Source: a virus (lineage: Duplodnaviria; Caudoviricetes). From it: DNA of 64,000 nucleotides. The position numbers were made by a program, and so were the translations under genes. The notes under the pieces are model-generated. The model was not told where the DNA came from. It was given only the letters and a program-made list of their open reading frames with translations, and ran no database searches. The stretch covers positions 64,001 to 128,000 of the IMG/VR virus record IMGVR_UViG_3300029288_000079, one strand, 5' to 3'. Numbering within the stretch: the first letter of the stretch is position 1; each line of letters starts with the position of its first letter. Of the stretch, positions 46,202 to 63,616 are shown in pieces.

Positions 46202-48196
46202 TTATATTTTAATTATTGCTTCTTTTGCCTTACTTACAGGTATTGATATTACTTTCGGAGTAGCATTTGTGTAATTCACATCTTTATGTATAATTGATAT
46301 TACAATCTCTCCATCCTCCCAAACCTTAGGCCAACCAGGATGCTTTTCATAATCAGTTCTAATTATTTCTAATATTCTTTTATCACTATTATAAAAATCT
46401 TTGTTGCCTACATTATCACAATACCAACTGAATACTATCCAACTTTTTATTTTAACCTTATCTCCCACCTCAAATTCATCTATTTCTGGTATATCCCATG
46501 AATTAATTAAAGGTGAATCCTTTACAAATATTAAAGGAAAATCAGTCTCTCCAAAATTGTATATACCTTTAACATTCCAACTAATAGGATATGTTATTTT
46601 TGGTTCATCATAAAACCACATAATAGAATAAATAAAAACTGTATTGAAATTCGATATCTCATATCTATATGCATTACCTAGTATAAAATAAAAATATTTA
46701 GCCTTTATACTATCAAAAGTTTTCCATACCTGTCTTGGGCCAGCTATACTTATAAAATCTTCTATTGTATCTGCTTGATAACCTGAATTTAATATAGGTT
46801 TAATATCCCATTCTTCAGAAAATCTCAAACTACTAGTAGTTTCTTGTGTATATTCCCATATATCTTCTTGAGCTTTAGCTAGTAAACTATCAAAATCAAT
46901 ATTCTTATTAGTTCGTTTAGCAGCTTGTCTTGCATATTTTATAGCATTAGCAGCAAAAAAAGCAGCAGCATTATCAGAAAAAAAAGCAGCAGCATTATCA
47001 GCATAATAAGCAGTAGCATAAGCAGCATAATAAGCAGTAGCATTAGCAGCATAAGCAGCAGTAGCAGCATAACCAGCAGCAGCATTAGCAGCAGAATAAG
47101 CAGAATAAACTTTATCTCTATTTTCTTTACTAGGATTCTTAAAACAAGTTTTTGCTGCTTCTATACATTTTCTAACTCTATCATCATTAGGATATTGCTC
47201 TTCATAAATACTTAATACAGCTTCTGCACAGTATATAGCATAAAGTAAATTTACTTTTTTAGGATCTACTTCTATAGGTTTAATGTCCCAGGATATCAAG
47301 TCCTTTTGAAAAATATCCTGCACCTGCCATTTATCGGGTGGACCGATACCACCAAATATCCACACTACAGCTTCTTTATTAAGAATATTGTTTTGTAATA
47401 ATTCAAATATGCAATCCACAAATTGTTGATTGTCTTGTATATCTTGAATAGCTACTTCATTTTTATTATGACTAACTCTTCCCAACATACTAACATGGTA
47501 TACCTCGGGACCTATACTTTCTCTAAGATCTGAATGAGTTTGTTTTGAGTCTCCTATTATAAGCTTACCATTATTATATAAAAAAGGTCGTCCTGCGCCA
47601 GTCTCAACATCGAATCCAGAATAGCTTGAAACTTTTCTATGTCTTTTATATCTATCTTTCACTTGTATATTAGGATCATATCCATCATGGTCTACTAAAC
47701 CTCTTCTTACATAATCCTCATCACAATCAGTATGATAAAATACTGTATCTATTTTTTCACCATTTAGATATACATCCCAAGTACCTGAATGCTCAGGTTT
47801 CTTAGGCTCTATATCCCATGATCTCTTTTTGGGACCACTAAAATTTAAATAATCTTTCGCAGATTCTATTATATCTTTTGAAACATTATCTATACTTCCT
47901 ATATGTGTACCTAAATAAATTGCCTTAGAAAAGGTTTTATTTTGTTCTGAAATATTTTTATTAGCATAAGTAGAGCTAAATCCTTTCCAGTTACCATTAT
48001 AACCACAATAAATGTAATCTCCTAATAATTTATTATCAATATGTTTAAAATTTCCTAATATATATAAATTATTTGCTACATTTTCATATAAGTAAACATC
48101 ATCATCTTTTATAGAATTTACAAACTCTTCAAAAGAGTCTATCCATGATATATCAGGAATATCCCAACTTAAAGATTTAATTTCTATAGGTTCCAT
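46202..48196 (-). CDS. SWDI-linked modular polyprotein (664 aa)
   Basis: SLSWDI, KRSWDI, LISWDI, EEWDI, INSWDI linkers; includes an Imm5-like module. Confidence 0.75.
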   Translation of the reverse strand: MEPIEIKSLSWDIPDISWIDSFEEFVNSIKDDDVYLYENVANNLYILGNFKHIDNKLLGDYIYCGYNGNWKGFSSTYANKNISEQNKTFSKAIYLGTHIGSIDNVSKDIIESAKDYLNFSGPKKRSWDIEPKKPEHSGTWDVYLNGEKIDTVFYHTDCDEDYVRRGLVDHDGYDPNIQVKDRYKRHRKVSSYSGFDVETGAGRPFLYNNGKLIIGDSKQTHSDLRESIGPEVYHVSMLGRVSHNKNEVAIQDIQDNQQFVDCIFELLQNNILNKEAVVWIFGGIGPPDKWQVQDIFQKDLISWDIKPIEVDPKKVNLLYAIYCAEAVLSIYEEQYPNDDRVRKCIEAAKTCFKNPSKENRDKVYSAYSAANAAAGYAATAAYAANATAYYAAYATAYYADNAAAFFSDNAAAFFAANAIKYARQAAKRTNKNIDFDSLLAKAQEDIWEYTQETTSSLRFSEEWDIKPILNSGYQADTIEDFISIAGPRQVWKTFDSIKAKYFYFILGNAYRYEISNFNTVFIYSIMWFYDEPKITYPISWNVKGIYNFGETDFPLIFVKDSPLINSWDIPEIDEFEVGDKVKIKSWIVFSWYCDNVGNKDFYNSDKRILEIIRTDYEKHPGWPKVWEDGEIVISIIHKDVNYTNATPKVISIPVSKAKEAIIKI
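46808..47293. repeat. 486-bp module duplication, copy A
   Basis: Appears identical to 62660..63145 (offset 15852). Confidence 0.9.
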
Positions 48197-48230
48197 ACAG
48201 TATATTTAGCCAATTTCTATATAAAAACAA

Positions 48231-48458
48231 CTATTTGTCTATATCTTCTCTAGTCACATGGAGCCACTTCGCTACTATATCAAAACTATCTATGCCAATA
48301 TCAAATCCATCTTTACAATAGTCATATTCTGCACCAGGTTCATACTTTAGAAAGAACTCATCCTTGTGGACACAGATACAATTATCACATTGAAACCAAC
48401 CATCAGGCACATATATCCACGTGGCCATTTTACCACAACTACAGAGTTCTTTTTCCAT
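48231..48458 (-). CDS. Small Cys-rich protein
   Basis: CSCGK.A.W...CDNC. Confidence 0.6.
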   Translation of the reverse strand: MEKELCSCGKMATWIYVPDGWFQCDNCICVHKDEFFLKYEPGAEYDYCKDGFDIGIDSFDIVAKWLHVTREDIDK

Positions 48459-48478
48459 TTAACTAACTTTATCCATTT

Positions 48479-48526
48479 AAATAATATCCTATTCGAATTC
48501 AAATAATATCCTATTCGAATTCAAAT
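48479..48526. repeat. 22-bp tandem duplication over a stop codon
   Basis: AAATAATATCCTATTCGAATTC x2. Confidence 0.8.
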
Positions 48527-48855: not shown

Positions 48856-48862
48856 ATATCAC

Positions 48863-50212
48863 CTATATATTAGCTGAGAAATGCCCCGAGTAACCTTTTT
48901 CTTTTGACCACAAGTAACCTTCTGCAGCTCTAGTACTCTTTACATAACCTTTCTTAAAATGCCAAGAGTCAGTACCTGAAAGACTTGGTAGAGTCCTTAC
49001 TGTTACAGATCCATAACTATCATCCATACCGTAAGCCATTCTTTTCCTAGTATGCGTATGTCCAATATGCCACTCCTTACTTATACAATCCGCCCATGCT
49101 TCTGAAGCCTCATCAGCCATTAATGTAGGTAACATGCTATGTTTCTCATCATCTCCATGAGTAAATCCTATAAGACATCTCCCGTAATGAACATACTTTC
49201 TTGGAGAGGGAGATACATCTACGATAACATTATTTACACCCTTATACCAAGCCGCTAACTCTCTTACTAGGTGATATGAAGATGTTCGATCATGATTTCC
49301 TGGAACCCATAGAATATCTACTGGTGCAATAGCTCTTAAATAATCAATAGCATTTACACAAGCCAAAACTCCTTTAGCAAATATTTTAGGATACCTAGAA
49401 TCAACGTCTTGAGGTGTGTCATTTACAGTAGTATTTCGTGCATTGTCTATATGAAAGAAGTCTTGACCCACAGGAAATAGAATCTTTTCTATAGGAAATC
49501 CCTTTGTCTTAGAACAAAGCTCTACTACAGCATCATGATATATTTTTTCAGCTATTTTCATATCGTAGTCAGTACCTGTTTCTTTTCCCCAAGCAAGCTT
49601 TCCAAAGTGAAGATCAAATATACTAATCTCCAGTAGATGTTTATCCTTTACAGGTTTAGGTGTCTGAATTTTAGTATACTTAGGAAAATGTTTCTTTGCT
49701 TCTTTAAGTAATTCATCCAAACCATCAGACACTTTTTTGTCCACTTTTCTTCTAAGCCATACTTTAACTTGCCACAAAGGTTGGGTGAGCCATTCATTCT
49801 TTCTTATAGAATGTCCATCCATAATACCTTTATCCCATTTCAAATTTTGATCTCTATATTTTGCTCCCACCTCCCATTTATTTATAACATATCTATCTAC
49901 TTCCCAAATACCCGTATCTACGTTACCCGCCTTCAGTGCATCTTCCAAAGTTTTTATAGAGTGAGATACTGAAACTAAAGATTTCTGATTATCATTACCC
50001 TCTTCTGTAAAATTCTCTTGTGGCTTCTCAATAATACTCCGTAATTTTTCTGCAAAAGGTTTCTTCAATCTCCTCGCCCTGTGATCTCCACATTTAAACC
50101 TTCCCATCAACTCATCAATTGTTACAGTCGGGTCTTTTTCAATAAATTCTATTATTTCTTTATCCGATGCTGTTTTCACATTTGATTTAGATTCCATCTC
50201 TATACCTTCCAT
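48863..50212 (-). CDS. Metallophosphoesterase / Mre11-SbcD-like nuclease with N-terminal HTH-like extension
   Basis: DLHFG, GQDFFH.D, PGNHD, THGD, GHTH motifs. Confidence 0.85.
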   Translation of the reverse strand: MEGIEMESKSNVKTASDKEIIEFIEKDPTVTIDELMGRFKCGDHRARRLKKPFAEKLRSIIEKPQENFTEEGNDNQKSLVSVSHSIKTLEDALKAGNVDTGIWEVDRYVINKWEVGAKYRDQNLKWDKGIMDGHSIRKNEWLTQPLWQVKVWLRRKVDKKVSDGLDELLKEAKKHFPKYTKIQTPKPVKDKHLLEISIFDLHFGKLAWGKETGTDYDMKIAEKIYHDAVVELCSKTKGFPIEKILFPVGQDFFHIDNARNTTVNDTPQDVDSRYPKIFAKGVLACVNAIDYLRAIAPVDILWVPGNHDRTSSYHLVRELAAWYKGVNNVIVDVSPSPRKYVHYGRCLIGFTHGDDEKHSMLPTLMADEASEAWADCISKEWHIGHTHTRKRMAYGMDDSYGSVTVRTLPSLSGTDSWHFKKGYVKSTRAAEGYLWSKEKGYSGHFSANI

Positions 50213-50264
50213 TTAGTTTTAGTTAGAAACGGATCCATTCGCTCCTCCGTTTCAGTTCATATAC

Positions 50265-50498: not shown

Positions 50499-50530
50499 AT
50501 ACCTTCCTATATATTTATATACCTTTGTAT

Positions 50531-50559
50531 ATAATACTTACTACACAACATTCTTACAA
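50531..50559 (-). promoter_or_regulatory. Sigma70-like promoter
   Basis: TTGTAA-N17-TATTAT in an intergenic gap. Confidence 0.5.
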
Positions 50560-50568
50560 CCTACAAAT

Positions 50569-50895
50569 CTATACACTATCTATTAACCAAGAATAGTCAA
50601 ATGAATCAATAAAACTAATATCCATATCAAATCCAAGTAATCTAATTTTAATATGAGGTTGACCAAGTTTAACAGGATCTAAAATGACCACATCCAAATC
50701 TGAATCATTTCTGTAATCCCCAAAAATTCTACTACCAAATAATTTAATATCAGAAACATCATACCCAAATTTTCTAGATATATTATTCTTTATATCTAAA
50801 ATAGACCTCCCATTTAACCCAAGATGTTCAAAATCTTTAGAAACTTTAAATATTTGTCTCCACCTAACCATAGTATACCCTATTGTAAAGAACAA
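50569..50895 (-). CDS. Minimal pol-beta-type nucleotidyltransferase (start probably MVRWRQIF at 50871)
   Basis: LFGSR..G.....SDLDV motif plus distal D. Confidence 0.85.
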   Translation of the reverse strand: MFFTIGYTMVRWRQIFKVSKDFEHLGLNGRSILDIKNNISRKFGYDVSDIKLFGSRIFGDYRNDSDLDVVILDPVKLGQPHIKIRLLGFDMDISFIDSFDYSWLIDSV

Positions 50896-52316
50896 GCACT
50901 ACTAATATCACCATCTTTAATCAACATATCATACATATCCAAAACATTGTCTCGACCTAACTCTTTATAAAGTCTACGCAGATATTCGTCCCTGCCCTCA
51001 TCTTGTTGACGAGCATATTTCTCCAGTACTATAGCATCCTTAAATGCAGGAGAGGCCACAACAGATAGTTCAAAGAATGATAATTCATGATTAATTTCTA
51101 AATTTCTAGCTATAACATATCTGCTACTTGTACCGTTTAGTACTTCTTGTATATCTCGCTGACTAGACAAAATATGGGGTAGCCATTCCGGACGTAAATG
51201 TTCACTATCAAGAAGATCTCTTATTTGATTTGCAGATACACTTGTAAGCCTACCCTTGTTGCCCTGCTTCATATGAGTACAATAATCTGAACTATAACGA
51301 GCTTTTGTATTACAAACTGAGCAAGTAGAATAGTTTACATTACAATTATGGACAATAATACCTCCCGCAACATAACTATGATCATGCTCTACTTCGAAAT
51401 TATATACATTACCATCATAATCAATTTCTTCTATATTGTCAACATAAAATCTGATAAGACTCATAGTACTATCAAACCCCATTACCTTATTATCTATAGC
51501 AAGGTCCCCAGCCTCTATCCAATATACTTCTTCAATTTTATAGTCATAATCAGTAGCCACTGGATGCTCTAAGGTAATAATTATTGGTTTATCACTACTT
51601 GGAGTTATAATTTTTAAAGCCTTACCTTTATATTGTCGAATCATTGTTTCAGTTACCTTTTGTATTGCTCCTGTATGGGATATGACTGAATCTCCCACCG
51701 ATACAGATTCTATTGGCATAGAAGACTTATCGGCCATAGTTACCAAAGCTCCTGGAGCAAAACATCCCATTGAACATGTTAAATTTTGTCCAGTGTCAAT
51801 CATACGAACAATACGTTCTAGTAACTCCTTGGTCTTCCTATCATGACTAGCAGACTTAACTAATTGGGTATCAATTCTCATTAATACTTCTATGTCCCCA
51901 AGAGTTTGGTCTTTAGCTTCTAATATATTTTTACGAAGTACATCTTGCTTTCTAGATAGCAATGATGCCCATTTCTTTTCTTTAACTTCCTCTGGATAAT
52001 TAAATCTATTCAGAAAAGCATCCGGAAGATCACCAATAGAACCACGAAGACCAAGTTTTGAATTATGTTCCGCGTGACTTTTTTTACCAATAAAACTTTT
52101 ATACCCATACCCAGGACGTTCATCTTCAAAATATTCATAAGGAAACGCATCAGCATTTCCGTTGGCCCCTGACTTTTCGAAATTTCCAATGGCTCTAAAA
52201 CGAAGATATCTGAATTCGTTTGTGTCTAATGGTAAAATTCTTTTCTCGTACTTAGCTGCTTGCCTAGATGTCAAAGGCTGAGGTTTAATAATTTGATTAC
52301 ATACTTTAACTAACAT
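50880..52316 (-). CDS. Prohead maturation protease containing an intein
   Basis: NGNADAF, H.EH, SMG|C..CSVC..C.H, FFELSVV..PA motifs; AGGTGA SD before ATG 52316. Confidence 0.8.
   Translation of the reverse strand: MLVKVCNQIIKPQPLTSRQAAKYEKRILPLDTNEFRYLRFRAIGNFEKSGANGNADAFPYEYFEDERPGYGYKSFIGKKSHAEHNSKLGLRGSIGDLPDAFLNRFNYPEEVKEKKWASLLSRKQDVLRKNILEAKDQTLGDIEVLMRIDTQLVKSASHDRKTKELLERIVRMIDTGQNLTCSMGCFAPGALVTMADKSSMPIESVSVGDSVISHTGAIQKVTETMIRQYKGKALKIITPSSDKPIIITLEHPVATDYDYKIEEVYWIEAGDLAIDNKVMGFDSTMSLIRFYVDNIEEIDYDGNVYNFEVEHDHSYVAGGIIVHNCNVNYSTCSVCNTKARYSSDYCTHMKQGNKGRLTSVSANQIRDLLDSEHLRPEWLPHILSSQRDIQEVLNGTSSRYVIARNLEINHELSFFELSVVASPAFKDAIVLEKYARQQDEGRDEYLRRLYKELGRDNVLDMYDMLIKDGDISSACSLQ
51345..51764 (-). 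mobile_element. Mini-intein (140 aa, no endonuclease)
   Basis: C1 CFAPGA, block B TLEHP, block F VYNFEV, terminal VHN followed by +1 Cys. Confidence 0.92.
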
Positions 52317-54057
52317 TTTTATCACCTGTAGTTTGTAGAAATTGATCCATTGTATATGGAGTAAAATCATTGGCAAATATTACAGCTACATCATCACTTG
52401 TAAAATTATTACATATTAATCTATCTAAACAATCTACAAGCTTATCAAACTCATCAGAAAATTCTTCAGGCTTATAGTCAGGGTTCCAGAATACAACAGC
52501 GTTAGTTCCCGCCCTACCTACAAAAGCATTTTTATAATCATTCAAATCAATATTAATATCAGGTATATCTCTATGTAAATCACCTTTACGACCAAAGCTT
52601 AATTTTCCATTTTCATAAAAAAATGGAATACCTTGAACACCTGCTAGCATAGATTTAGGTATATTAGAGTGTTTTGATAAAGAAGATTGTTTATTATTAG
52701 CAAGCTCTAAATCACTACCAAATATAATATAAGTATACCCATTATGTACTAAAGGTTCCACCTCATATATCATTTTTCCAGTCTTATTATGAACATCTTC
52801 TGGATATATCTCATGAATTACTTTATATTTCTTATGATATTCCAGTCTTTCATATTTATATTTACCTTCTATATCTAATATAATATCATCCCCTTCTTCA
52901 TCAAAAATAGCAGCAGGATCAGTGTCACGAATTTTAGTAACAATATCACCTATAATAAATTCCTGTTCTAAGTCTGGTATATCCCAGCTTAATGATCCGA
53001 ATTTATCCGAAAGATAATCTTGAATACTGCCATAAAATAACTCCTTATGCACACCATTGGCAGTGATTACAACCTTAGTTGCATCTGTCTTACGCAAAAA
53101 CTCTATTATAAAACCCTTCTGATTTCCTATGACACCTTTATTCCAAACTTCAAAATAAATAACCCCCTCTTGCAAATTACTTCGAACCCATCCCTTATTT
53201 AAAAGATACTCTTGAGGTTTAACATTATATTCACTGTTACCTGCATCCATTATACCTGAAGCCTCTTCTTCATAGTTAGGATAGAATTTTAATATCAAAG
53301 GTATAGCAGACTTGGTGTGATCATCCAAAGCATCAAAATTATCCCCCATAGGAGATATCCAACACCTACTATAGTCTGTTGTATATCCATTATAAAGAGT
53401 TATAGGATTCTCAACCTCAATATCTGGAACATCCCAGCTTAAATTCATATTCTGTTTCGGAAAGGAATAAAGTTCAGCTTTGCCAGAATCACCTGTTTTT
53501 CTTGAGTCAGTGATAATATGTTTAGATTTATCTTTTAAAAGATTGTGTCTATAATTAACCATATGTTCACCAACATCTGTTTGAATATTACCATGTATTT
53601 CTAACCCAGGATAATTTTTCTGCACATAATCTACAAACATTTTTTGCATCTGTTTTCCATATCCCTGATTTCTATACTCCGGCAATATATAAAAAGTAAT
53701 TACTTTTATAATTGGCTCATTTAAATCTTTCGAAGATTTTTCTATAGCAAATCCTAACAACCCAACATCTAGACCATTATCAATTAATACTAAAGCATTA
53801 AGGGCATAAACATAGTGTTTAAAAAAATCAGACCCTTTACTACCCCCCTCGGCATCTTTATTTTCTACAAACTCATGCCCCGGCATTCTCTTTACAGTTT
53901 CTTCAGGAAGTACATAATTATCTTTATTACCATAAGGATGCTCCCATGATAACCAACCTCTAAAAAAAGATTGATCTATAGGTTTTAAATTTTTCAATTC
54001 CCATCGAAATCCTATGCCAGAACCATCAAAGCTTAATATATTTCTAACCTTCTCCAT
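52306..54057 (-). CDS. SWDI-linked modular protein with N-terminal GNAT acetyltransferase
   Basis: YILPEYRNQGYG acetyl-CoA motif; ILSFD, NLSWDV, SLSWDI linkers. Confidence 0.8.
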   Translation of the reverse strand: MEKVRNILSFDGSGIGFRWELKNLKPIDQSFFRGWLSWEHPYGNKDNYVLPEETVKRMPGHEFVENKDAEGGSKGSDFFKHYVYALNALVLIDNGLDVGLLGFAIEKSSKDLNEPIIKVITFYILPEYRNQGYGKQMQKMFVDYVQKNYPGLEIHGNIQTDVGEHMVNYRHNLLKDKSKHIITDSRKTGDSGKAELYSFPKQNMNLSWDVPDIEVENPITLYNGYTTDYSRCWISPMGDNFDALDDHTKSAIPLILKFYPNYEEEASGIMDAGNSEYNVKPQEYLLNKGWVRSNLQEGVIYFEVWNKGVIGNQKGFIIEFLRKTDATKVVITANGVHKELFYGSIQDYLSDKFGSLSWDIPDLEQEFIIGDIVTKIRDTDPAAIFDEEGDDIILDIEGKYKYERLEYHKKYKVIHEIYPEDVHNKTGKMIYEVEPLVHNGYTYIIFGSDLELANNKQSSLSKHSNIPKSMLAGVQGIPFFYENGKLSFGRKGDLHRDIPDINIDLNDYKNAFVGRAGTNAVVFWNPDYKPEEFSDEFDKLVDCLDRLICNNFTSDDVAVIFANDFTPYTMDQFLQTTGDKNVS

Positions 54058-56032: not shown

Positions 56033-56050
56033 AACTTTACCTTTTTAGTT

Positions 56051-59000
56051 TCAAATTAATTCCATGTCTGTATAAAATATAAACCAACTATCCTTTAAAT
56101 GCGTATATGTATCCAATATTACATACCAATAATAAGGGTTTCCACATTGTTTTAATAATGTTCCTTCCGATCCTTTAGCCAAATTAACTTCAGAAATTCC
56201 TATAAAATTAAATACATCATTTTTTAGTCTAACCCTATCTCCAGCTATAAACTCATTTTCTATTATAGGTATATCCCAAGATTGTTTTTGTTCAGAATAT
56301 TGATCCACTATCTCTATATCTTTACTTAACATATATACAGAACCCTCCTCACTTATAAATACATTATATATAGGTTCCTCCAGATATTTTTTAGTTAAGC
56401 CTGCTGGACAAACTCCTTTAGCATCTCTATTTGCTTCCTCAGAATTTTTAAAAATTAAATATATATAACCTATTTTACCAATAATTGATTTTACAAAGTT
56501 AGGGTCTAAATTACCAATAGATTTAGATAATATTTTTACCTTATCCCCAACTTTGGGATCTATATCTGGTATATCCCAAGATAATCTTGGTAAAGCATTA
56601 TCATGCCTTTCCATACAATGAATAGCTAAATGTTGGAGTTCTTGTGTAGGTATACCCTCAGTCTTTTTAGATTCTTTTTTGGGTACTATAGTATCAAAGA
56701 GGTTATATTGAGAAAGGTCGATATTTTGTTCATAATTATCCTCATTAATATCCGATTCAATATAGATATTTCTTATATTATTGTCAATAGCTATCTCACT
56801 TGCACTTATATCACATGCTTCCGGAGCTATATGATCCGGTGTCTCCATATCAATATCAGGTTCTTCAGCTTCAGATTCTGGTATCAAGTTTAATTGAGTC
56901 TCCGGTTCTACAGGATCTACCCGTCTCTGCCTACGCTGTCTAGGCTGTAATTGCTCATAATTTCCTATTGGAATTCCATCCCACCCAATTTCTATTCTAT
57001 AATTAGCATCAAATTTATAAGGGTGCTCAAAATCATAATTTAGAGTATAAAGCATTTCACCCCTTTTACTAAATACACTCCCAGGAACATTAAATTTGTT
57101 TAGCCAGAAATTAATTCTAGATTTTGTTGTAGGTGTATTATAATTTCCATTATCTACTATAATTCTATCCCCATAAAATACTACAACATCAGTAGACCAG
57201 TATCTTATAGCTATACCATCTCCAAATACCCTATGCATTATGGTTTTATGGCCCACTACTCTTTCTGACTTATTCTTAAACCTTCCATTATTAGTTAATA
57301 TATTTTCAATATCTTGCATCTGCCATGCAGGAGTATTAGAAATATCCCATGCTAAAGTATTAATATTATCATCAACTTTAACTAAGGTCATAGGCATGTT
57401 AGATTCCCAAACTACAGCATAAGCTGTTTTAGGATATTTAATTTTATAGACAGGTCTTATATTACTAAAATATTTAGAATCAGCTAGATTTACAGCCCTA
57501 CTTTCTAAATTATCTTCATTATTATTAAAATCATAAATACCAAAATTTTCATAGTTTGGCCCTATATGTAAATAATTATCCCCAAGATGAGTATCATCTT
57601 TCCATACTTGCCCTGGTGCAGCTACTTCTAAGAACTCTTCTAGTGTATTTACAATATGTCCCTCTTGTAAAAATGGTATATCCCAACTATGCATATATCT
57701 TGTTTTATTTGCATTTTCTACTTGAACAAGTTCCATAGGATATGCTTCATCCATTACATAACATCTATCAGATATAGCTACAGATTTCCAATGTCGATCT
57801 TCATTACTTCCAAACCATTGACTAGATCTGATAGATAAAGCTTTACCAGCTTTAATAGCACTGATCTCACTACTATCTTCTGTAACAATAAAAATATTAG
57901 GATTGCTCTTAATATATAAGAATGATCCTAAAGTCTTACTTCTCCAGACCTGCCCGGCTCTTGCATTTTCTCTAAACTCTTTTTGACTATTTGCAATATC
58001 ACCTAATTCAGGATCTATAGATATATTCCAAGCCAATACATCTGTAGCAATTTTACCCTCTGTATCAAAATCATAATCATTAGACTCAATTAATTCTATA
58101 ATAGCTTCTTTAGATGTTAAATATTCATATTCATGTCTCAGCATAGTTAGATAATCGTCACAAAGAGCTTTTTTAAACTCATCCTCAAGATCTTCTATTG
58201 ACCCATCAATCTCATATTCATTGTCCTCTGTTCTTTCACTCTCCAATAATCTTAAACTTTCTTTAAATCTCAGTGCAGTTTTATATGTATCACAAGTATT
58301 ACCATGATCACGCATTATATCTGCAATGCATTCCGACATACTTTGAGTAAGTTCTCCTGAACAATAACTACCCCTATCAATATCGAATCCTGTTATTTTT
58401 AGTCCAATATTTGCAGCATCGTCATATGTACACTCCCACCAATCATAATCTACATTTTTATCATAAAGGTTTTCAATAGCTTTTTCCTGTATATCTTCAG
58501 GTAATTCATTATATTTATATGTAGTATCTTTATCATCGGGATCAAATATAGGAGATATATCCCATGAAAGATTTAAATTATTTCTAAATCTTAAACTACT
58601 AGTAGTTTCTTGTGTATATTCCCATATATCATTTTCTGCTTTAGCTAGTAAACTATCAAAATCAATATTTTTATTAACCTGTTCAGCAGCTCTTTTAGCA
58701 TATTTTATAGCATAAGCAGCATCAATAGCAGCATCAATAGCAGCATCAATAGCAGCATCAATAGCATAAGCAGCAGCATTAGCAACATAATAAGCAGCAG
58801 CATTAGCAACATAAGCAGCAGCATCAATAGCAGCATCATAAGCAGCATCAGCAGCAGCAGTAGCAGCATAACCAGCAGAATAAGCTTTATTTCTATTTTC
58901 TTTACTAGGATTCTTAAGACAAGCTTTTGCTGCCTCTATTGCTGCTCTAGGTCTGCTATCATTAGGATATTTAGATTCAAATATAGGTAGTACAGCTTCT

Positions 59001-62000
59001 GCACAGTAAATAGCATAAAGTAAATTTACTTTTTTAGGATCTACTTCTATAGGTTTAATATCCCAGGAGAGGTTTTCATTTATTAATTTAATATCATTTA
59101 TATTAACAGCCCACCCTAGACGAGAAGTACCTGGATGACTTATTGATAAAAGAGAGAAATTATCCCAATCAACACTAACATACCCATCACCTCTTAATTC
59201 TGTTATAGTACCTTTACTACCCTTCCGTATAGGTTCCACATTATTAACATAATAGGCTTCATCATCACGTATGAATTCTATTCTATCCCCTATTTCGAAT
59301 TCTCCAGGAATTCTAGGTAAGTCCCAGCTTAAACTAGATCCATAAGGCATCAAAGGACGCATATCGTTTACTTTATCAAGAGTTCTATGCAAGCCACGTT
59401 CAAACCACATATCAGAATCATCTTTATCAAGCTTTCTAGCTGCAGGATCCTGCTGTTGTTTCTGATCCGTCGGTCCTCTACGAACCACCTCTTCAGGTTG
59501 TGGATCTAACACACTATCATATTCATCTGAAGCTTTAACCTCAAATGGAAATACACCTACAAATCTTATAGGTTTTAAAGTAGTAATATTAGTAAAACTT
59601 AATTTTCCACCATCAATAATCACCTTAGCTAATTCAGGCTTTGCTAAAAGTTCATTAAAAAATGCTTCAGCATCTTCTTCACTAAATCCAACATACCGAT
59701 ATGCATAATTAATTTTTACAGCTACAACTACTCCATAAGTATTGTAGAGATTAGCGTATGTCATCCACCCTAAGAAACTCTCAGGATTTGATATATCAGG
59801 TTTTGCGGGAGATATATCCCATGACATTTTCTCTGGATCTTTAAATTTATTCAAAAGATTAATTATCACTCTATCATGATCATCTAAATAATCTTTTTTA
59901 GTTATGTAAGATGCCTCCCTATCTGAAAGTGCCAAATTAGAAATTCTAGCTACATCAGCATTTGATGGACTATCATCTATATCTTGATGAATTAGCGTAG
60001 ATGGAAAATACTTTATATCATTTTCTCCGGGCAACCAATCCTTTGGAGTAGTTATATCTAAGTGATCTTCTTGTCTAAAGAATAAAGCCTGCTGATCAAA
60101 CTGATCTTTAGACATATCTATATCTGATTTATCTGTATAAGATTCCGGAGTTGAAACTTTTATAGATGCTTCTCTTATATCTCCATCCTGCAAAGAATCT
60201 TCATTCTTTCTACGATCTAACTCTTGTTCAATCCATTCCCTTAACTTCAGATCAAATACACTAAAACATTGCTCCGCATCCTCTATAATGCTATTCAATG
60301 ACTTTAGTTCTTTTTCAAGGTTCTCTGTAGGTCCTTTTAGTAATTTTACAACCCAATTCTCCTCAGGCTTGGGATCTGAAATATCCCATGCCAACTTACT
60401 AATCTTTTCCTTTACCTTACCTGAATTTAATGATACTTTATACATCTCATCATCCGAGAACTTACAACATATTTCTTTTGCTGACCAACTAAAAGGTTTG
60501 AGATCCTTAAGATTAGCTTTACCATTACCCTCGTATTTTAATGTAACATGGGGTAAGTATCCAAACTTGCGATCAAATTCATCAATTACTGATTCAACGG
60601 CTTCTAAACATTTCTGATAAACCTCGGCACCATCAATGCAATTAACCAATGCAGCAACTGTGTTATCTCCATTATCAAATGTACCTAAACCTGTAAATTT
60701 ACATTTTATCTTCTTATATTGTTTCGCTACTGATTGGATAGCCTTAACAATCTTTTTCTTTTCATTAGGCGTGAGTTTCTTATCCTTCACGCATATCAAT
60801 GTCATATGTAAGTCTTGATCAAGATTACTTATATGATTGAATCTTTTTCTAACAGACTTAGGAAGATCTAAATAAATGAATATCTCATCCTTGAATTCAT
60901 TTTTCTTAGATGCTGTGTTATCTATAGAAGGTATAAATTCTAAATCCTGAGCAATATAAAAAGACCAAGCAACATTATTACGTACTCCAGTTTTGTATTC
61001 TACTGTGTAGTAATGTTGTCCCAAATATTTCTCACCTTGATTCTCATAAAAAGTAGAACTGTTAATAGTATCTTCTGATATCCCCACAATTCTACCAGTA
61101 AGACCTATACCCATAGTAGCAAATTTGGGTCTTGCATACACACTTTTTGATAGTATCTTTACTTTGTCCCCAACTTTAAACTCTGGAGTGTATGATATAT
61201 CCCAAGATAAAGTTTCAAGTATTCCTATATATCGAATAGGTTTAAGCCATGTTAAATAACATTCAAATGTTTCAATATTTTTAGATAGTCTAGCCTCAGT
61301 TCTATTTACTCCTATAGTAGCAGCTACCTCATACCAATTACTAAAACCCATGCCCTGTCCTATTAATTTGATGCCCTGAATTACACAATACTGATTATCA
61401 AAATCTCTTTTACATAACCATCCTATAAAATCTTCGGGAGAACTATTATATGTAGGTACCTCAGGATCCATAGATATATTCCAAGATAAATGTGAGCCTA
61501 TTTTTTCTATGTATCTCTGCCAATAACTCAAGGGTATATCAAAATGAATTTCATTACCATCTTTATTATAGCCTTCAATAATGACCTTACCCCTCCCCCA
61601 GTTAGGTATGTCTTTAGGAAGTTCCCAAACATCACAACCTTCATCAACATAATTATATTTAAAATTAATTTCTACAACCTCAAATTCATTTTTATCAAAA
61701 TCATCAAAGTATTCATTATCAATATCAATTTCAGACGATGATTGAGGTATAAGACTTACCTTATCCCCAACTTTTAATTCTATATCAGGTATATCCCAAG
61801 CCAAAGCTGATCTATAATCTTCCAACATACTATGTAGATGTAATGGAAAATCATATTTTTCATCAACGATAGTAGTTCCAAAATCTTGCTCTATATCCAC
61901 ATCAGATTTATTTTCAGGTTTCATCCATACCGCATTCTTCAAAATAAGCTTATTATCATTTTTTCTCTCATACTCAATAGGATGATTTGGAGATAATACC

Positions 62001-63616
62001 AATGCAAATCCTGACCGACTATACCATATCTGACTTGGTTGTGCTTCTTTTATAAATTTCTCTACAGCAGCTTCATTAGCAGCAGTAGACTCAAAAGATA
62101 ATTTATCATTCACAACTTCTAAAAAATCTTCCCATTTATTGTATGGAAATGTATTTGTAGCTCCATGAAAATGAACATATACTCTTCCTGTGTATAATCC
62201 TCCACAATCATACTCATATTCATGATCAGGCAAAATTTCAATAACTTTTCCTACAGATCCCTGAAAATAAGAATCTACATCAATATTATCTAAATAATTT
62301 CTATCAGCTATGACTCGAACAATATCCCCTTCTTTTATGTTAGTAATAATATCCCAAGACTTCTTATTATTATTAGAATCTATGAGTGTAACCCACCTAT
62401 CATAATCTGGAAGAGGTATGATAAAAGATATCATATCACCCTCTACGTCTTTACCTTCTATACGCATGGCTCCTGCATGTCCTTCGGAAGAAAACCATGA
62501 ACTACTTTTTTTCACAATTGTAACTACAAAATCATTTTTGTCAAAGAGATTACTAAACGTAACAGGATCTGAATATGCTGGATCCTTAATAATCTCATGT
62601 AAATTTTCAGGTATTATGGAAAAGTGGTCCCCAATTTTAGGTACATACAGTTTAATGTTCCATTCTTCAGAAAATCTCAAACTACTAGTAGTTTCTTGTG
62701 TATATTCCCATATATCTTCTTGAGCTTTAGCTAGTAAACTATCAAAATCAATATTCTTATTAGTTCGTTTAGCAGCTTGTCTTGCATATTTTATAGCATT
62801 AGCAGCAAAAAAAGCAGCAGCATTATCAGAAAAAAAAGCAGCAGCATTATCAGCATAATAAGCAGTAGCATAAGCAGCATAATAAGCAGTAGCATTAGCA
62901 GCATAAGCAGCAGTAGCAGCATAACCAGCAGCAGCATTAGCAGCAGAATAAGCAGAATAAACTTTATCTCTATTTTCTTTACTAGGATTCTTAAAACAAG
63001 TTTTTGCTGCTTCTATACATTTTCTAACTCTATCATCATTAGGATATTGCTCTTCATAAATACTTAATACAGCTTCTGCACAGTATATAGCATAAAGTAA
63101 ATTTACTTTTTTAGGATCTACTTCTATAGGTTTAATGTCCCAGGAGAGAGTATTTGAATCTCCTTCAAGATTTATAATATCTGCTTTTATAACAGCCCAA
63201 TGTTTATTTGCATCACCGAAAGCATCTTCACATGTGGGCTGATTATCCCAATCTACAAATACAAAATCCTGGCCCTTCATTAAATCCATAACCACACCCG
63301 TAGAACCATATGAGACTTCACAACTATAATCAATGGTCCCCCAATAAGAATTTCGATCTTTCTTAATCCATTTAACTCTATCACCTATTTCAAACTGGCC
63401 CGGCTTTCTAATCGTAACTATGTCCCATGCACTTACAGGAGTTCCATATTCCTTAACTTTAAATAATTCCTTATCTTCTCTATCCAAATCTGGAAGAGCT
63501 AGATCTGTATTCCAAGGTTCTTGAAAATCTAAGGAATTATATCCAGGGGCAGGAGACTCCTTTTCAAAAGGATCACCTATACTTTTCAATCTATCTATGA
63601 TAACATCTTTTGCCAT
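56051..63616 (-). CDS. Giant SWDI-linked modular polyprotein (2521 aa) with a 2H phosphoesterase, two Imm5-like and many SH3/KOW-like modules
   Basis: 16 [SA]W[DN][IL] linkers plus EEWNI; HMT and HVT 2H motifs. Confidence 0.8.
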   Translation of the reverse strand: MAKDVIIDRLKSIGDPFEKESPAPGYNSLDFQEPWNTDLALPDLDREDKELFKVKEYGTPVSAWDIVTIRKPGQFEIGDRVKWIKKDRNSYWGTIDYSCEVSYGSTGVVMDLMKGQDFVFVDWDNQPTCEDAFGDANKHWAVIKADIINLEGDSNTLSWDIKPIEVDPKKVNLLYAIYCAEAVLSIYEEQYPNDDRVRKCIEAAKTCFKNPSKENRDKVYSAYSAANAAAGYAATAAYAANATAYYAAYATAYYADNAAAFFSDNAAAFFAANAIKYARQAAKRTNKNIDFDSLLAKAQEDIWEYTQETTSSLRFSEEWNIKLYVPKIGDHFSIIPENLHEIIKDPAYSDPVTFSNLFDKNDFVVTIVKKSSSWFSSEGHAGAMRIEGKDVEGDMISFIIPLPDYDRWVTLIDSNNNKKSWDIITNIKEGDIVRVIADRNYLDNIDVDSYFQGSVGKVIEILPDHEYEYDCGGLYTGRVYVHFHGATNTFPYNKWEDFLEVVNDKLSFESTAANEAAVEKFIKEAQPSQIWYSRSGFALVLSPNHPIEYERKNDNKLILKNAVWMKPENKSDVDIEQDFGTTIVDEKYDFPLHLHSMLEDYRSALAWDIPDIELKVGDKVSLIPQSSSEIDIDNEYFDDFDKNEFEVVEINFKYNYVDEGCDVWELPKDIPNWGRGKVIIEGYNKDGNEIHFDIPLSYWQRYIEKIGSHLSWNISMDPEVPTYNSSPEDFIGWLCKRDFDNQYCVIQGIKLIGQGMGFSNWYEVAATIGVNRTEARLSKNIETFECYLTWLKPIRYIGILETLSWDISYTPEFKVGDKVKILSKSVYARPKFATMGIGLTGRIVGISEDTINSSTFYENQGEKYLGQHYYTVEYKTGVRNNVAWSFYIAQDLEFIPSIDNTASKKNEFKDEIFIYLDLPKSVRKRFNHISNLDQDLHMTLICVKDKKLTPNEKKKIVKAIQSVAKQYKKIKCKFTGLGTFDNGDNTVAALVNCIDGAEVYQKCLEAVESVIDEFDRKFGYLPHVTLKYEGNGKANLKDLKPFSWSAKEICCKFSDDEMYKVSLNSGKVKEKISKLAWDISDPKPEENWVVKLLKGPTENLEKELKSLNSIIEDAEQCFSVFDLKLREWIEQELDRRKNEDSLQDGDIREASIKVSTPESYTDKSDIDMSKDQFDQQALFFRQEDHLDITTPKDWLPGENDIKYFPSTLIHQDIDDSPSNADVARISNLALSDREASYITKKDYLDDHDRVIINLLNKFKDPEKMSWDISPAKPDISNPESFLGWMTYANLYNTYGVVVAVKINYAYRYVGFSEEDAEAFFNELLAKPELAKVIIDGGKLSFTNITTLKPIRFVGVFPFEVKASDEYDSVLDPQPEEVVRRGPTDQKQQQDPAARKLDKDDSDMWFERGLHRTLDKVNDMRPLMPYGSSLSWDLPRIPGEFEIGDRIEFIRDDEAYYVNNVEPIRKGSKGTITELRGDGYVSVDWDNFSLLSISHPGTSRLGWAVNINDIKLINENLSWDIKPIEVDPKKVNLLYAIYCAEAVLPIFESKYPNDSRPRAAIEAAKACLKNPSKENRNKAYSAGYAATAAADAAYDAAIDAAAYVANAAAYYVANAAAYAIDAAIDAAIDAAIDAAYAIKYAKRAAEQVNKNIDFDSLLAKAENDIWEYTQETTSSLRFRNNLNLSWDISPIFDPDDKDTTYKYNELPEDIQEKAIENLYDKNVDYDWWECTYDDAANIGLKITGFDIDRGSYCSGELTQSMSECIADIMRDHGNTCDTYKTALRFKESLRLLESERTEDNEYEIDGSIEDLEDEFKKALCDDYLTMLRHEYEYLTSKEAIIELIESNDYDFDTEGKIATDVLAWNISIDPELGDIANSQKEFRENARAGQVWRSKTLGSFLYIKSNPNIFIVTEDSSEISAIKAGKALSIRSSQWFGSNEDRHWKSVAISDRCYVMDEAYPMELVQVENANKTRYMHSWDIPFLQEGHIVNTLEEFLEVAAPGQVWKDDTHLGDNYLHIGPNYENFGIYDFNNNEDNLESRAVNLADSKYFSNIRPVYKIKYPKTAYAVVWESNMPMTLVKVDDNINTLAWDISNTPAWQMQDIENILTNNGRFKNKSERVVGHKTIMHRVFGDGIAIRYWSTDVVVFYGDRIIVDNGNYNTPTTKSRINFWLNKFNVPGSVFSKRGEMLYTLNYDFEHPYKFDANYRIEIGWDGIPIGNYEQLQPRQRRQRRVDPVEPETQLNLIPESEAEEPDIDMETPDHIAPEACDISASEIAIDNNIRNIYIESDINEDNYEQNIDLSQYNLFDTIVPKKESKKTEGIPTQELQHLAIHCMERHDNALPRLSWDIPDIDPKVGDKVKILSKSIGNLDPNFVKSIIGKIGYIYLIFKNSEEANRDAKGVCPAGLTKKYLEEPIYNVFISEEGSVYMLSKDIEIVDQYSEQKQSWDIPIIENEFIAGDRVRLKNDVFNFIGISEVNLAKGSEGTLLKQCGNPYYWYVILDTYTHLKDSWFIFYTDMELI
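62660..63145. repeat. 486-bp module duplication, copy B
   Basis: Appears identical to 46808..47293; a diverged third copy lies at ~58590..59070. Confidence 0.9.

What the first reader, a model, noticed from the sequence alone, without database searches (positions are those of the whole stretch)
46808..63145. A module copied exactly from linker to linker between two genes 15.9 kb apart
Seen: 46808..47293 and 62660..63145 appear identical over 486 bp. Identity begins at the TCC TGG GAC ATT (S-W-D-I) codons and ends at the next linker Trp codon (GAA TGG), with unrelated modules on either side. A diverged third copy (~58590..59070) also starts at CTC TCC TGG GAT ATT AAA CCT. Inference: the linker DNA (mostly TGGGATAT) is the crossover point for in-frame cassette shuffling, an integron-like system at the protein-domain level. 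Alternatively, selection only retains whole modules.
Basis: partly seen in the sequence, partly recalled or inferred. Interest (0 to 1): 0.8.

Follow-up and report, generated by a model that had tools for sequence, protein, structure and literature searches.

The report
Exact domain copy between phage polyproteins
A 182-kb uncultured phage has copied one 160-residue protein domain, letter for letter, between two of its giant "beads-on-a-string" head-region proteins, and related phages show that whole domains are gained and lost exactly at the short S-W-D-I peptide joining the beads; ordinary recombination plus selection explains this, with no integron-like machinery.

Summary
Window 46808-47293 and 62660-63145 are identical over 486 bp. 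On the minus strand this runs in frame from the Ser codon of one S-W-D-I linker to the Trp codon of the next, inside two genes (gB 664 aa, gD 2521 aa) with unrelated flanks.

The unit is an Imm5-like all-helical domain. It is one of five copies in the genome, with mosaic interiors.

Between relatives, whole modules come and go at the linker. Two indels between near-identical contigs switch inside GCTATCTTGG and TGGGA. Fourteen of 35 homology-block ends lie within 12 aa of a linker in both genomes (0.7 expected).

The integron analogy fails:
- Linker codons are no more conserved than the peptide plus codon usage predicts.
- There is no integrase or serine recombinase, only a phage RecA.
- Some breakpoints lie inside modules.
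- Linker pairs are only 6-26% of the 8-10-nt microhomologies in the gene, so selection for intact modules must do much of the filtering.

The linker is a protein-level signal. It is probably the cut site of a T4 gp21-fold prohead protease that I identified two genes from the portal, but no cut has been shown.

The scan has noted similar linker-punctuated phage polyproteins on other DNA, and this system in this genome.

The parts
46808..47293 (-). Exact repeat, copy in gB (aa 302-463): Imm5-like helical module, from the Ser codon of its own S-W-D-I linker to the Trp codon of the next linker
   Evidence: 0 mismatches to 62660-63145. Pfam Imm5_like PF21805 E=7e-8. AF2 model pLDDT 84.6, helices 23-173, with the linker residues as coil.
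62660..63145 (-). Exact repeat, copy in gD (aa 158-319), the first Imm5-like module of gD
   Evidence: An Imm5-like module occupies this slot in relatives P0002 and P0276, but with a different sequence (75% aa identity) and a different 3' end, RNNLNLSW.
58568..59068 (-). Diverged third copy (gD aa 1517-1683), the second Imm5-like module of gD
   Evidence: 82% gapped nt identity to the exact pair and 91% to the copy at genome 130783. Pfam Imm5_like E=1e-15.
47282..47293 (-). Upstream junction linker in gB: TCC TGG GAC ATT. The preceding codon is ATA, against CTC in gD.
63134..63145 (-). Upstream junction linker in gD: TCC TGG GAC ATT
46799..46810 (-). Downstream junction linker in gB: TGG GAT ATT AAA. 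It heads an unrelated 77-aa module (the PGQVW family).
62651..62662 (-). Downstream junction linker in gD: TGG AAC ATT AAA. It heads the YVPKIGDHF module.
46202..48196 (-). gB, a 664-aa polyprotein with 7 W-[DN]-[ILV] motifs. The first lies 10 aa after the start Met.
   Evidence: Orthologues in relative R (P0001, rB) lack the Imm5 module.
56051..63616 (-). gD, a 2521-aa polyprotein of about 18 modules with 17 linkers, directly upstream of the portal gene
   Evidence: The R orthologue has 2860 aa, 21 linkers and a different module order.
42877..45249 (-). gA, a 790-aa polyprotein with 6 motifs
52306..54057 (-). gC, a 583-aa polyprotein (GNAT-like module plus two linker-headed modules)
   Evidence: Relatives have only a leader plus the last module.
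54044..56032 (-). Portal protein, which places the polyprotein genes in the head-assembly block
   Evidence: phrog_16240 E=2e-56
50880..52376 (-). Candidate prohead (capsid maturation) protease, interrupted by a mini-intein at aa ~204-346, just after the invariant S-M-G
   Evidence: Hint/intein Pfam and TIGR01443 matches. The model of the intein-free homologue P0280 (pLDDT 86) best matches T4 gp21 5jbl_A (Z 9.3, rmsd 2.8, 132 aligned), then the VZV, KSHV and HCMV proteases.
48863..50212 (-). DNA repair exonuclease homologue lying between gB and the protease gene; part of the phage's general recombination and repair kit
   Evidence: phrog_704 E=2e-76

Best explanation
The 486-bp repeat is a real and very recent non-reciprocal copy (gene conversion or ectopic copy-paste) of one Imm5-like helical domain. 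It lies in two slots of the phage's cargo polyproteins, which are polyvalent proteins encoded around the portal gene. Every module in these proteins is headed by a peptide signal, consensus K-L-[S/A]-W-[D/N]-[I/L]-P, which is selected at the protein level. Its most likely role, inferred and not shown, is recognition and cleavage by the phage's T4 gp21-fold prohead protease, so that the modules are loaded into the capsid and released as separate proteins.

Shuffling needs no dedicated machinery. Paralogous modules exchange sequence by ordinary homologous recombination: the phage has RecA and a repair exonuclease, and the Imm5 copies have near-identical 75-nt and 45-nt ends with mosaic interiors. 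Unrelated modules are joined by short-homology events at the only sequence they share, the obligatory linker codons TGG GAY ATH plus neighbours (8-12 nt). Such joins are automatically in frame and regenerate exactly one linker. Selection then removes most products that cut through a domain or destroy the signal. The linker-to-linker boundaries of the exact copy are where homology between the two contexts ends.
For: Shown:
- The two copies are identical, with unrelated flanks.
- The genome holds five Imm5 copies at 82-100% nt identity, with conserved ends and mosaic interiors; for example the copy at 130783 is gD1-like up to about nt 100 and then 100% gD2-like.
- Module strings differ between phages whose portals are 81-86% identical.
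- The three large indels seen between close relatives all lie at the linker Trp. Two are resolved to the nucleotide and one at protein level.
- 14 of 35 block ends lie at a linker in both genomes against 0.71 expected, P<5e-5.
- Linker codons carry no excess DNA conservation.
- RecA is present; no integrase, resolvase or RecT was found.
- The linker lies outside the fold: residues 13-22 are coil with low pLDDT, and homology to bacterial Imm5-like proteins starts about 8 residues after the Trp.
- The motif also sits 6-18 aa after the start Met of gA, gB, gI, gJ, rA, rC and rI, and heads single-module ORFs in R, so it is a tag and not just a spacer.
- A related lineage uses L-[S/A]-W-E-E instead.
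- A gp21/assemblin-fold protease gene lies two genes from the portal.

From the literature: giant-phage gp21-type proteases cut after a small residue-X-Glu motif and trim the propeptides of ejection proteins (PMC10052503).
Against: - No cleavage, packaging or recombination event has been observed; all of it is inferred from sequence.
- About 14% of linkers have Asn instead of Asp, which is awkward for an acid-specific protease.
- Portal and other recognised structural proteins lack the motif.
- Junction microhomologies are only 8-10 nt, typical of any linker pair, and linker pairs are a minority of such microhomologies in the gene. The mutational contribution of the linker DNA therefore cannot be separated from selection.
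- The direction of the copy (gB to gD or the reverse) is unresolved.
- Exact identity could be slightly overstated if the assembler merged near-identical copies.
Confidence: 0.6

Rival explanations
1. Selection only. Illegitimate recombination breaks these genes at random, the linker DNA plays no part, and only products that keep whole domains and one intact S-W-D-I signal survive, so the survivors look as if they crossed over at the linker.
For: Linker-linker pairs are just 6% (>=8 nt) to 26% (>=10 nt) of in-gene microhomologies. The junction pairs have ordinary microhomology lengths. Linker codons show no DNA-level constraint. Non-linker products do exist, such as the SH3/Imm5-tail fusion in rD found in two independent assemblies.
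Against: A homology-free join that restores exactly one in-frame linker needs both breaks at equivalent positions of two linkers, which is very improbable. The observed switches lie inside shared 10-nt and 5-8-nt stretches. Linker pairs make up half of the >=12-nt repeats in rD. The events seen between near-identical contigs are recent, leaving little time for purging.
Confidence: 0.2
2. A dedicated, integron-like cassette system. The linker DNA is the site of a specialised recombinase that excises and inserts domain cassettes in frame.
For: Cassette-like behaviour, with one site per module placed at its 5' end and also ahead of the first module. Earlier notes report that the same genome carries integron-type attC arrays elsewhere (unchecked here).
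Against: No tyrosine integrase, serine recombinase or RecT in a record rated 100% complete. Ser is encoded by both TCN and AGY codons. Nucleotide identity equals the peptide-based expectation. There is no conserved DNA or symmetry beyond about 12 nt. Two of five Imm5 copies are not followed by a linker. Recombination also occurs inside modules.
Confidence: 0.04
3. Assembly artefact. The second copy, or its exactness, was created by the assembler through a chimeric join or by merging two slightly different copies.
For: The record is a short-read metagenome assembly with 127-nt overlaps at its ends, pointing to k=127. A 486-bp exact repeat exceeds k. A near-identical strain (P0005) differs from gB by two indels inside the module, so variants that could be merged do exist.
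Against: Both junctions of both copies are in frame in long ORFs. The gD flanks match the order in P0002 and P0276. Independent NCBI contigs reproduce gB-upstream/Imm5 (P0275), gD-upstream/Imm5 (P0022) and Imm5/gB-downstream (P0005), and the first two break 126 nt into the repeat, as a true repeat would cause.
Confidence: 0.04

Closest known systems
Polyvalent proteins of phages and conjugative elements (Iyer, Burroughs, Anand, de Souza, Aravind 2017, PMC5512222)
   Same: Very long phage proteins that string many unrelated small effector or anti-defence domains together. Here these include GNAT, a 2H/2'-5' RNA ligase-like domain, a SAM methyltransferase, Imm5-like modules and Pfam LPD28. They are encoded among virion genes and thought to be packaged and delivered, and they show extensive mosaicism.
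   Different: That paper describes no common linker; the word 'linker' does not occur in it. It assigns processing to in-built zincin-like peptidase domains, which I did not find here. In this phage every module carries one conserved S-W-D-I head, spread over about 10 genes.
Prohead-protease-processed head cargo: T4 internal proteins with their capsid-targeting leader and gp21, and the phiKZ/SPN3US ejection proteins cut after A/S/G-X-E (PMC10052503)
   Same: A gp21/assemblin-fold protease gene sits in the head block. Short N-terminal leaders end in the motif. The motif has the form small residue-X-acid ([S/A/G]-W-[D/N] here, [S/A]-W-E in a related lineage). Multiple sites occur per protein.
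   Different: Known substrates lose propeptides; they are not chains of 5-20 independent domains. P1 would be Asp or Asn rather than Glu, and X is invariably Trp. No proteomic evidence exists for this phage.
Recombination at short conserved motifs that swaps protein segments: His-box motifs in T-even tail-fibre adhesins, and the VENN or PxxxxDPxGL boundary of CdiA/Rhs polymorphic toxins with orphan cassettes (from my own knowledge; polymorphic toxins in PMC3482391)
   Same: A conserved peptide motif at a domain boundary supplies the DNA identity at which unrelated downstream sequences are exchanged in frame. Spare single-module ORFs exist in R (rh1-rh3).
   Different: Those systems swap one terminal domain using long homology upstream of the motif. 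Here any internal module can be inserted, deleted or copied, with only 8-12 nt shared.
Integrons (IntI, attI, attC gene cassettes)
   Same: Only the outcome is shared: an ordered array of exchangeable units, each carrying one boundary element.
   Different: No integrase and no structured DNA site. The units are in-frame protein domains rather than promoterless genes, and the boundary element is conserved as a peptide, not as DNA.
The classical debate on phage mosaicism: conserved 'linker' sequences directing homologous exchange (Susskind and Botstein) versus random illegitimate recombination followed by selection (Hendrix and colleagues) (from my own knowledge)
   Same: The same two alternatives, and, as in lambdoid phages, the data call for both.
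   Different: Here it plays out between domains inside single ORFs rather than between genes, so the reading frame and a peptide signal must also be preserved.

Membership tests
Integron | IntI-type tyrosine recombinase encoded with the array | tested here: not met
   Pfam Phage_integrase PF00589 finds nothing in the 181.7-kb record (rated 100% complete), while all 14 control genomes ring. No serine recombinase either.
Integron | Structured attC-type DNA site at each cassette boundary, conserved as DNA | tested here: not met
   DNA information is confined to about 12 nt around TGG. Nucleotide identity equals the expectation from peptide plus codon usage, z -1 to +0.9. Ser is encoded by AGT, AGC and TCN.
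Integron | Cassettes are promoterless whole genes expressed from Pc | tested here: not met
   The units are in-frame domains inside ORFs of 583-2521 aa.
Polyvalent proteins (Iyer et al. 2017) | Many (2-15 or more) unrelated effector-type domains in one polypeptide of a phage or plasmid | tested here: met
   gD has about 18 modules. Pfam finds Imm5_like x2 and 2_5_RNA_ligase2 in gD, GNAT in gC, methyltransferase in gF, and LPD28 plus Imm5_like in gJ.
Polyvalent proteins (Iyer et al. 2017) | Carries a domain family defined on polyvalent proteins (LPD) | tested here: met
   PF18843 LPD28 E=4e-12 over cut-off in gJ (L016:11936-15394), outside the window.
Polyvalent proteins (Iyer et al. 2017) | Virion or late-gene context | tested here: met
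   The genes flank the portal and the gp21-fold protease gene.
Polyvalent proteins (Iyer et al. 2017) | In-built zincin-like MPTase for autoprocessing (frequent, not universal) | tested here: inconclusive
   No such Pfam hit in gA-gJ. A separate M20/M28/M42-type (HxD, D, EE, D, H) peptidase-like gene lies between gE and gF.
Imm5-like immunity protein domain (Pfam PF21805) | Match to the family HMM above the curated cut-off | tested here: met
   32.8 bits in gB and 58.3 bits in gD against a cut-off of 25. 2472 library proteins at E<=1e-3, mostly 150-200-aa stand-alone proteins. The model is all-helical.
Prohead-protease-processed capsid cargo (T4 IP/CTS type; phiKZ/SPN3US type) | Phage encodes a gp21/assemblin-fold maturation protease | tested here: met
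   The model of intein-free homologue P0280 (81% identical to the extein of window 50880-52376) matches T4 gp21 5jbl_A at Z 9.3, rmsd 2.8, 132/165 aligned, then three herpesvirus proteases at Z 8.4-6.0. The next, unrelated, folds are at <=5.9. Fold only; catalytic residues were not mapped.
Prohead-protease-processed capsid cargo (T4 IP/CTS type; phiKZ/SPN3US type) | Substrates carry the protease's consensus site (small residue-X-Glu) at propeptide and domain boundaries | tested here: inconclusive
   [S/A/G]-W-[D/N] here and [S/A]-W-E-E in the related lineage resemble AXE (PMC10052503), but P1 is Asp or Asn, and no structural protein with the site was recognised.
Prohead-protease-processed capsid cargo (T4 IP/CTS type; phiKZ/SPN3US type) | Cleaved products present in virions | not testable with these tools
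   Needs virion proteomics.

The most novel reading that the evidence does not exclude
The S-W-[D/E] head of each module is a dual-purpose element. As a peptide it is the cut-and-load signal of the prohead protease. Because its codons are nearly fixed, it is also an in-frame recombination joint present about 50 times per genome. Together these give this phage group a domain-level cassette exchange, a prokaryotic-virus counterpart of exon shuffling. Anti-defence modules such as the Imm5-like domain can then be copied, amplified (1-2 copies in relative R, 5 here) and diversified among packaged proteins on the time scale of strain divergence.
Probability: 0.3. Interest if true: 0.8.

Novelty: new variant of a known kind. 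Interest (0 to 1): 0.62.

Why it matters
This repeat catches domain shuffling in the act. The copy has zero differences, both ends fall on a peptide signal, and sister strains differ by whole modules at the same signal.

It gives a concrete, testable case for an old question in phage evolution: do conserved boundary sequences guide mosaicism, or does selection merely filter random joins? Here the question is posed inside single reading frames.

If the linker is a prohead-protease site, these phages ship dozens of separately evolving small proteins in their capsids. Those proteins include immunity-protein-like domains that may neutralise host toxins. The linker could then be used to find such cargo in metagenomes and to delimit unknown domains.

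The theme recurs with other linkers in other phages noted by this scan, and I found no description of it in the literature searched.

Tried and rejected
- Megablast of the 17.8-kb region against 50,697 phage records found nothing.
- A viral-contig search with the module protein and with its conserved 29-nt start found nothing.
I therefore could not fetch the DNA of the contigs holding P0005, P0275, P0022 and P0276, and the gD/P0276 indel is resolved only at protein level.
- Pfam Peptidase_S77 and S78 found no protease, and the S77 search rang in no control genome, so it is uninformative.
- Foldseek against the PDB gave nothing significant for either model. The protease fold appeared only with the exhaustive aligner.
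- The 479-aa 'peptidase' between gE and gF (phrog_4191) was considered as the linker protease. I set it aside because its invariant HxD/D/EE/D/H pattern and weak DapE match point to an M20/M28/M42-type exopeptidase.
- Single-linkage clustering of modules over-merged families F1 and F2, so I used it only for gene maps.
- Direction of the copy is unresolved. Relatives have an Imm5 module at the gD slot but not the gB slot, which suggests gD to gB. But the sequence type and 3' end (SEE-W) now at gD differ from those of relatives at that slot, which suggests overwriting from gB.
- I tested whether recombined linker pairs have unusually long microhomology: 10 and 8 nt against a median of about 7-8. 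With n=2 this is not informative.
- No decayed modules were found outside the polyprotein ORFs.
- Other multi-Imm5 proteins (P0006, P0011 and others) do not use this linker.
Full report
**1. The observation**

Window 46808-47293 and 62660-63145 are identical at all 486 positions, and the exact run cannot be extended by a single base on either side. The repeat finder sees the same pair, plus a third member at 58564-59068.

All long ORFs here are on the minus strand. Read on that strand, the identity starts at TCC TGG GAC ATT. This is S-W-D-I, at residues 302-305 of a 664-aa ORF (gB, 46202-48196) and residues 158-161 of a 2521-aa ORF (gD, 56051-63616). It ends at GAA TGG, at W463 of gB and W319 of gD. 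After that, gB reads GAT ATT AAA CCT and gD reads AAC ATT AAA CTG, so a gapped alignment runs 10 nt further at 99.6%.

The flanks are unrelated: 35-42% nt identity, with different module families on both sides.

**2. Context**

The window is part of a 181,733-bp virus record rated complete. It has 33% G+C and 127-nt overlaps at its ends.

The motif [S/A/G/T]-W-[D/N]-[I/L/V] occurs about 50 times in the genome. Nearly all occurrences are in ten minus-strand ORFs, and there are none in the other large ORFs of the window. Four of the ten ORFs are in the window:
- gA, 42877-45249
- gB, 46202-48196
- gC, 52306-54057
- gD, 56051-63616

These genes surround the portal gene, 54044-56032. The consensus is K-L-S-W-D-I-P.

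The modules between motifs are unrelated to one another and include recognisable domains:
- Imm5-like modules and a 2H/2'-5' RNA-ligase-like domain in gD
- a GNAT-like domain in gC
- a SAM methyltransferase in gF
- Pfam LPD28 ('large polyvalent protein associated domain') in gJ

These are therefore phage polyvalent proteins in the sense of Iyer et al. 2017. That paper never mentions a shared linker, and a literature search for the motif found nothing relevant.

**3. The duplicated unit**

It matches Pfam Imm5_like above the cut-off. About 2,500 library proteins match it, mostly stand-alone proteins of 150-200 aa.

An AlphaFold model built with 88 homologues has mean pLDDT 84.6 and is all-helical from residue 23 to 173 of the 180-aa query. 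The S-W-D-I-K-P-I-E-V-D stretch (residues 13-22) is coil with low confidence. The next linker Trp follows the last helix directly. Homology to bacterial family members also begins about 8 residues after the Trp.

The unit is thus one autonomous domain plus its N-terminal head. Foldseek found no significant PDB relative. The best-shaped weak hit is the immunity chain of a type VI secretion toxin.

**4. A multi-copy, recombining family**

The genome holds five copies: gB, two in gD, and two outside the window, with Trp codons at genome 130783 and 163079. Pairwise nt identities run from 82% to 100%.

All five share an almost invariant first ~75 nt and a 45-nt block near the 3' end, including at synonymous sites. 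The Ala/Tyr-rich middle is variable and mosaic. For example, the copy at 130783 is 95-100% like the exact pair over nt 20-99 and then 100% like the second gD copy over nt 100-259.

Four of the five copies share CTC TCC before the TGG; gB has ATA TCC. At the 3' end, homology stops at ...AGA TTT (R-F) or TCT GAA GAA (S-E-E). Two of the five copies are not followed by a linker at all.

Paralogous modules therefore exchange sequence by ordinary homologous recombination. That process has breakpoints inside the module as well.

**5. Relatives**

A portal search recovered four related sequences:
- a 45.7-kb IMG/VR contig (L001)
- the same phage independently assembled as a 164.6-kb contig in a mis-binned NCBI MAG (L005, 99.93% identical; the whole contig was fetched and is called 'R' here)
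- two short contigs, L002 and L004

R also has about 50 linkers. Its module strings differ greatly from those of this phage, although the portals are 81% identical:
- The gD orthologue has 2860 aa and 21 linkers, with modules in a different order.
- gC is reduced to a leader plus one module.
- gB lacks the Imm5 module.
- R has only one complete Imm5 module plus a remnant.

Four relatives show four different module strings at the C-terminal end of the gD gene.

**6. Where the breakpoints lie**

(a) L004 and L001 are 98% and 89% identical on either side of two whole-module indels. At the first, L004 follows one register of L001 up to GCTATCTTGG (the L-S-W codons) and the other register from there on. 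At the second, the switch is inside TGGGA.

(b) P0276 is the gD of a closer relative and is 80-98% identical in most modules. It has an extra 113-aa module inserted precisely between ...RSALA-W and D-I-P-D-I-E-L.

(c) Between this genome and R, there are 35 internal ends of blastp blocks with at least 55% identity. Of these, 14 lie within 12 aa of a linker Trp in both genomes, against a random expectation of 0.71 (none of 20,000 simulations reached 14). Nineteen lie near a linker in at least one genome.

(d) Counter-examples exist. Sixteen ends are not near any linker. In R, the gD slot that holds SH3-like + linker + Imm5 in this phage holds a single fusion of the SH3-like N-part to the Imm5 tail, with no linker. 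This is a deletion with both breakpoints inside modules, and it is present in two independent assemblies.

**7. Is the linker a DNA site?**

No. The evidence:
- Ser is encoded by AGT (10), TCT (12), TCA (7), TCC (6) and AGC (3).
- Asp is GAT in 35 of 44 linkers, against 91% GAT elsewhere in these genes.
- Ile is ATA 28, ATT 12 and ATC 1, against a background of 53/43/4%.
- Mean pairwise nucleotide identity over the linker codons is 0.63, and 0.74 for the four core codons. Simulation from the peptides and the genes' own codon usage gives 0.62-0.63 and 0.75. In both genomes z lies between -1 and +0.9.
- Information content is confined to positions -2 to +10 around the TGG.
- The genome has RecA (itself split by an insertion) and a repair exonuclease, but no tyrosine integrase, serine recombinase or RecT.

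The integron analogy therefore fails on every defining feature that could be tested.

**8. Mutation bias or selection?**

Any two linkers share a median of 7-8 nt of exact identity through the TGG. The two recombined pairs share 10 and 8 nt.

Among all direct-repeat microhomologies within the R gD gene, linker-linker pairs in register make up these fractions:

| Microhomology length | Linker-linker share |
|---|---|
| >= 8 nt | 6% |
| >= 10 nt | 26% |
| >= 12 nt | 50% |

Microhomology alone would therefore place only a minority of events at linkers, yet all three large indels between close relatives are there. Selection for whole modules and an intact signal must do much of the filtering.

Conversely, a homology-free join that recreates exactly one in-frame linker is very improbable, and the observed switches do lie inside shared stretches. 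I conclude that both processes act. The linker codons make exact in-frame joins reachable, and selection keeps them.

**9. What the linker is for (inferred)**

It is conserved as a peptide, lies outside the folded domain, and heads every module. It also sits 6-18 residues after the start Met of gA, gB, gI, gJ, rA, rC and rI, and it heads single-module ORFs in R. It is therefore a tag rather than a passive spacer. A related lineage (P0009, P0010, P0013) uses L-[S/A]-W-E-E in the same places.

The gene two positions downstream of the portal (50880-52376) is interrupted by a mini-intein placed just after an invariant S-M-G. It has many intein-free homologues of about 336 aa. A model of one of these (pLDDT 86) aligns best with the T4 prohead protease gp21 (Z 9.3, rmsd 2.8 Å, 132 of 165 residues). 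The next three matches are herpesvirus capsid proteases (Z 8.4-6.0), ahead of unrelated folds at 5.9 or below.

Proteases of this family in giant phages cut after a small residue-X-Glu motif and trim ejection-protein propeptides at several sites (PMC10052503). [S/A/G]-W-[D/N], and [S/A]-W-E in the sister lineage, have that form. Cleavage after the acid is thus the most economical reading. However, Asn at that position in about 14% of linkers, and the absence of the motif from recognised structural proteins, are unexplained. No cut has been observed.

**10. Is the repeat an artefact?**

This is unlikely. Both copies are in frame at both ends, and the gD flanks match the order in relatives.

Three independent NCBI contigs reproduce the junctions:
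- P0275 is exactly gB 1-343.
- P0022 is exactly gD 1-199.
- Both stop 42 codons (126 nt) after the first base of the Ser codon, which is where a k=127 assembly graph would branch if the identity begins there.
- P0005 starts at that Ser and runs through an Imm5 module into the rest of gB. It is identical to gB apart from two indels in the Ala/Tyr-rich region.

The module in gB therefore predates this strain, and its interior is still changing. Whether the two copies here are strictly identical or were merged by the assembler can only be settled with reads.

**11. History of the copy**

An Imm5-like module occupies the gD slot in P0002, P0276 and, as a remnant, in R. The gB slot has one only in near-identical strains, so the gB copy is the younger acquisition.

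Yet the sequence now at the gD slot differs from that of relatives at the same slot: 75% aa identity, and a 3' end of S-E-E-W instead of R-N-N-L-N-L-S-W. This is what an overwrite from the gB-type copy would give. I could not resolve the direction.

The module following the insert in gB starts TGG GAT ATT AAA CCT ATA, the same 18 nt (one mismatch) as the start of the Imm5 module. The module following the gD copy starts W-D-I-K-P-Y in the relative. A copy event primed by these 16-21-nt linker-plus-three-codon identities on both sides is plausible, but it is inferred.

**12. Verdict**

Linkers are where modules are exchanged, but through general recombination and selection acting on a peptide signal, not through an integron-like DNA system.

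It has also noted analogous linker-punctuated phage polyproteins with other linkers in other genomes (e.g. e1-5380179, e1-5379636). I did not check those notes.

What this locus adds:
- a zero-divergence copy
- nucleotide-level junctions between sister strains
- a quantitative separation of peptide-level from DNA-level constraint
- a candidate protease

Noticed in passing
window 50880-52376 (-): The candidate prohead protease carries a mini-intein (aa ~204-346) inserted directly after an invariant S-M-G motif. Intein-free homologues of about 336 aa are common in large uncultured phages and have no Pfam family. A conserved Cys/His cluster (C192, C195, C206, H208 in P0280) follows the insertion point.
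   Followed up: partly
L004:1794-3086: The portal gene of a close relative has a 1.29-kb in-frame insertion (ORF 1095 aa against 662-665 aa) that is absent from L001 and from the window. It is probably another intein.
   Followed up: no
genome 14928-16985 (outside the window; G000:C1): The phage RecA matches Pfam in two pieces (positions 2-189 and 189-262) inside one 771-aa ORF, so it too appears to hold an intein-sized insertion. The large terminase (L016:497-3667) holds an intein with a LAGLIDADG domain. A free-standing LAGLIDADG endonuclease ORF lies at window 36702-37664. The genome is unusually rich in homing elements.
   Followed up: partly
L015:4281-5720 (-), genome 132281-133720: A 479-aa protein sits between two polyprotein genes. 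Its C-terminal ~210 aa are about 50% identical to more than 700 metagenomic proteins and carry invariant HxD, DD, EE, D and H residues, the pattern of M20/M28/M42 di-zinc peptidases. No Pfam hit; weak DapE match.
   Followed up: partly
P0003; P0009, P0010, P0013, P0014 (proteins): Other lineages join Imm5-like and other modules with different repeated peptides: E-A-E-D-P-K-T-F-F in P0003 and L-K-[LV]-[SA]-W-E-E in P0009, P0010 and P0013. Several of these proteins start M-N-W-R-K-I-F-S-W-E-E. The window ORF 45233-46186 starts M-N-W-R-K-I-F-S-T-K-E-D, the same leader without the Trp.
   Followed up: no
window 43855-43953 and 63901-63999: A 99-nt repeat at 77% identity encodes a ~60-aa helical segment (...KVNKINKMLQYLSAESSLKFSWDL). 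The segment ends in a linker and recurs before linkers in gA, gE, rA, rE and rJ. It is a shared pre-linker element rather than a module.
   Followed up: partly
window 6871-8476 and 28490-28903 / 31565-31975: Other recent internal duplications occur in this genome. One is a 785-bp tandem pair at 94% identity inside the 1486-aa ORF 5302-9762 (Laminin_G_3 domain). The other is a 414-bp pair at 93% inside the 1714-aa ORF 27731-32875.
   Followed up: no
G000 ends (genome 1-127 = 181482-181608; 180129-180255 = 181607-181733): Two exact 127-nt overlaps at the contig ends suggest a k=127 assembly of a circular or circularly permuted genome, with an unresolved bubble at the join.
   Followed up: no
gB aa 188-303 (window ~47288-47632) and gC C-terminus: A domain of the form 'PF(L/F)Y(N/E)NGKL...H.D' follows its neighbour without a canonical linker in both gB and gC. 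At the same point the R orthologue of gB has K-K-S-W-D-I. gC starts M-E-K-V-R-N-I-L-S-F-D-G, which may be a degenerate head with Phe in place of Trp.
   Followed up: no
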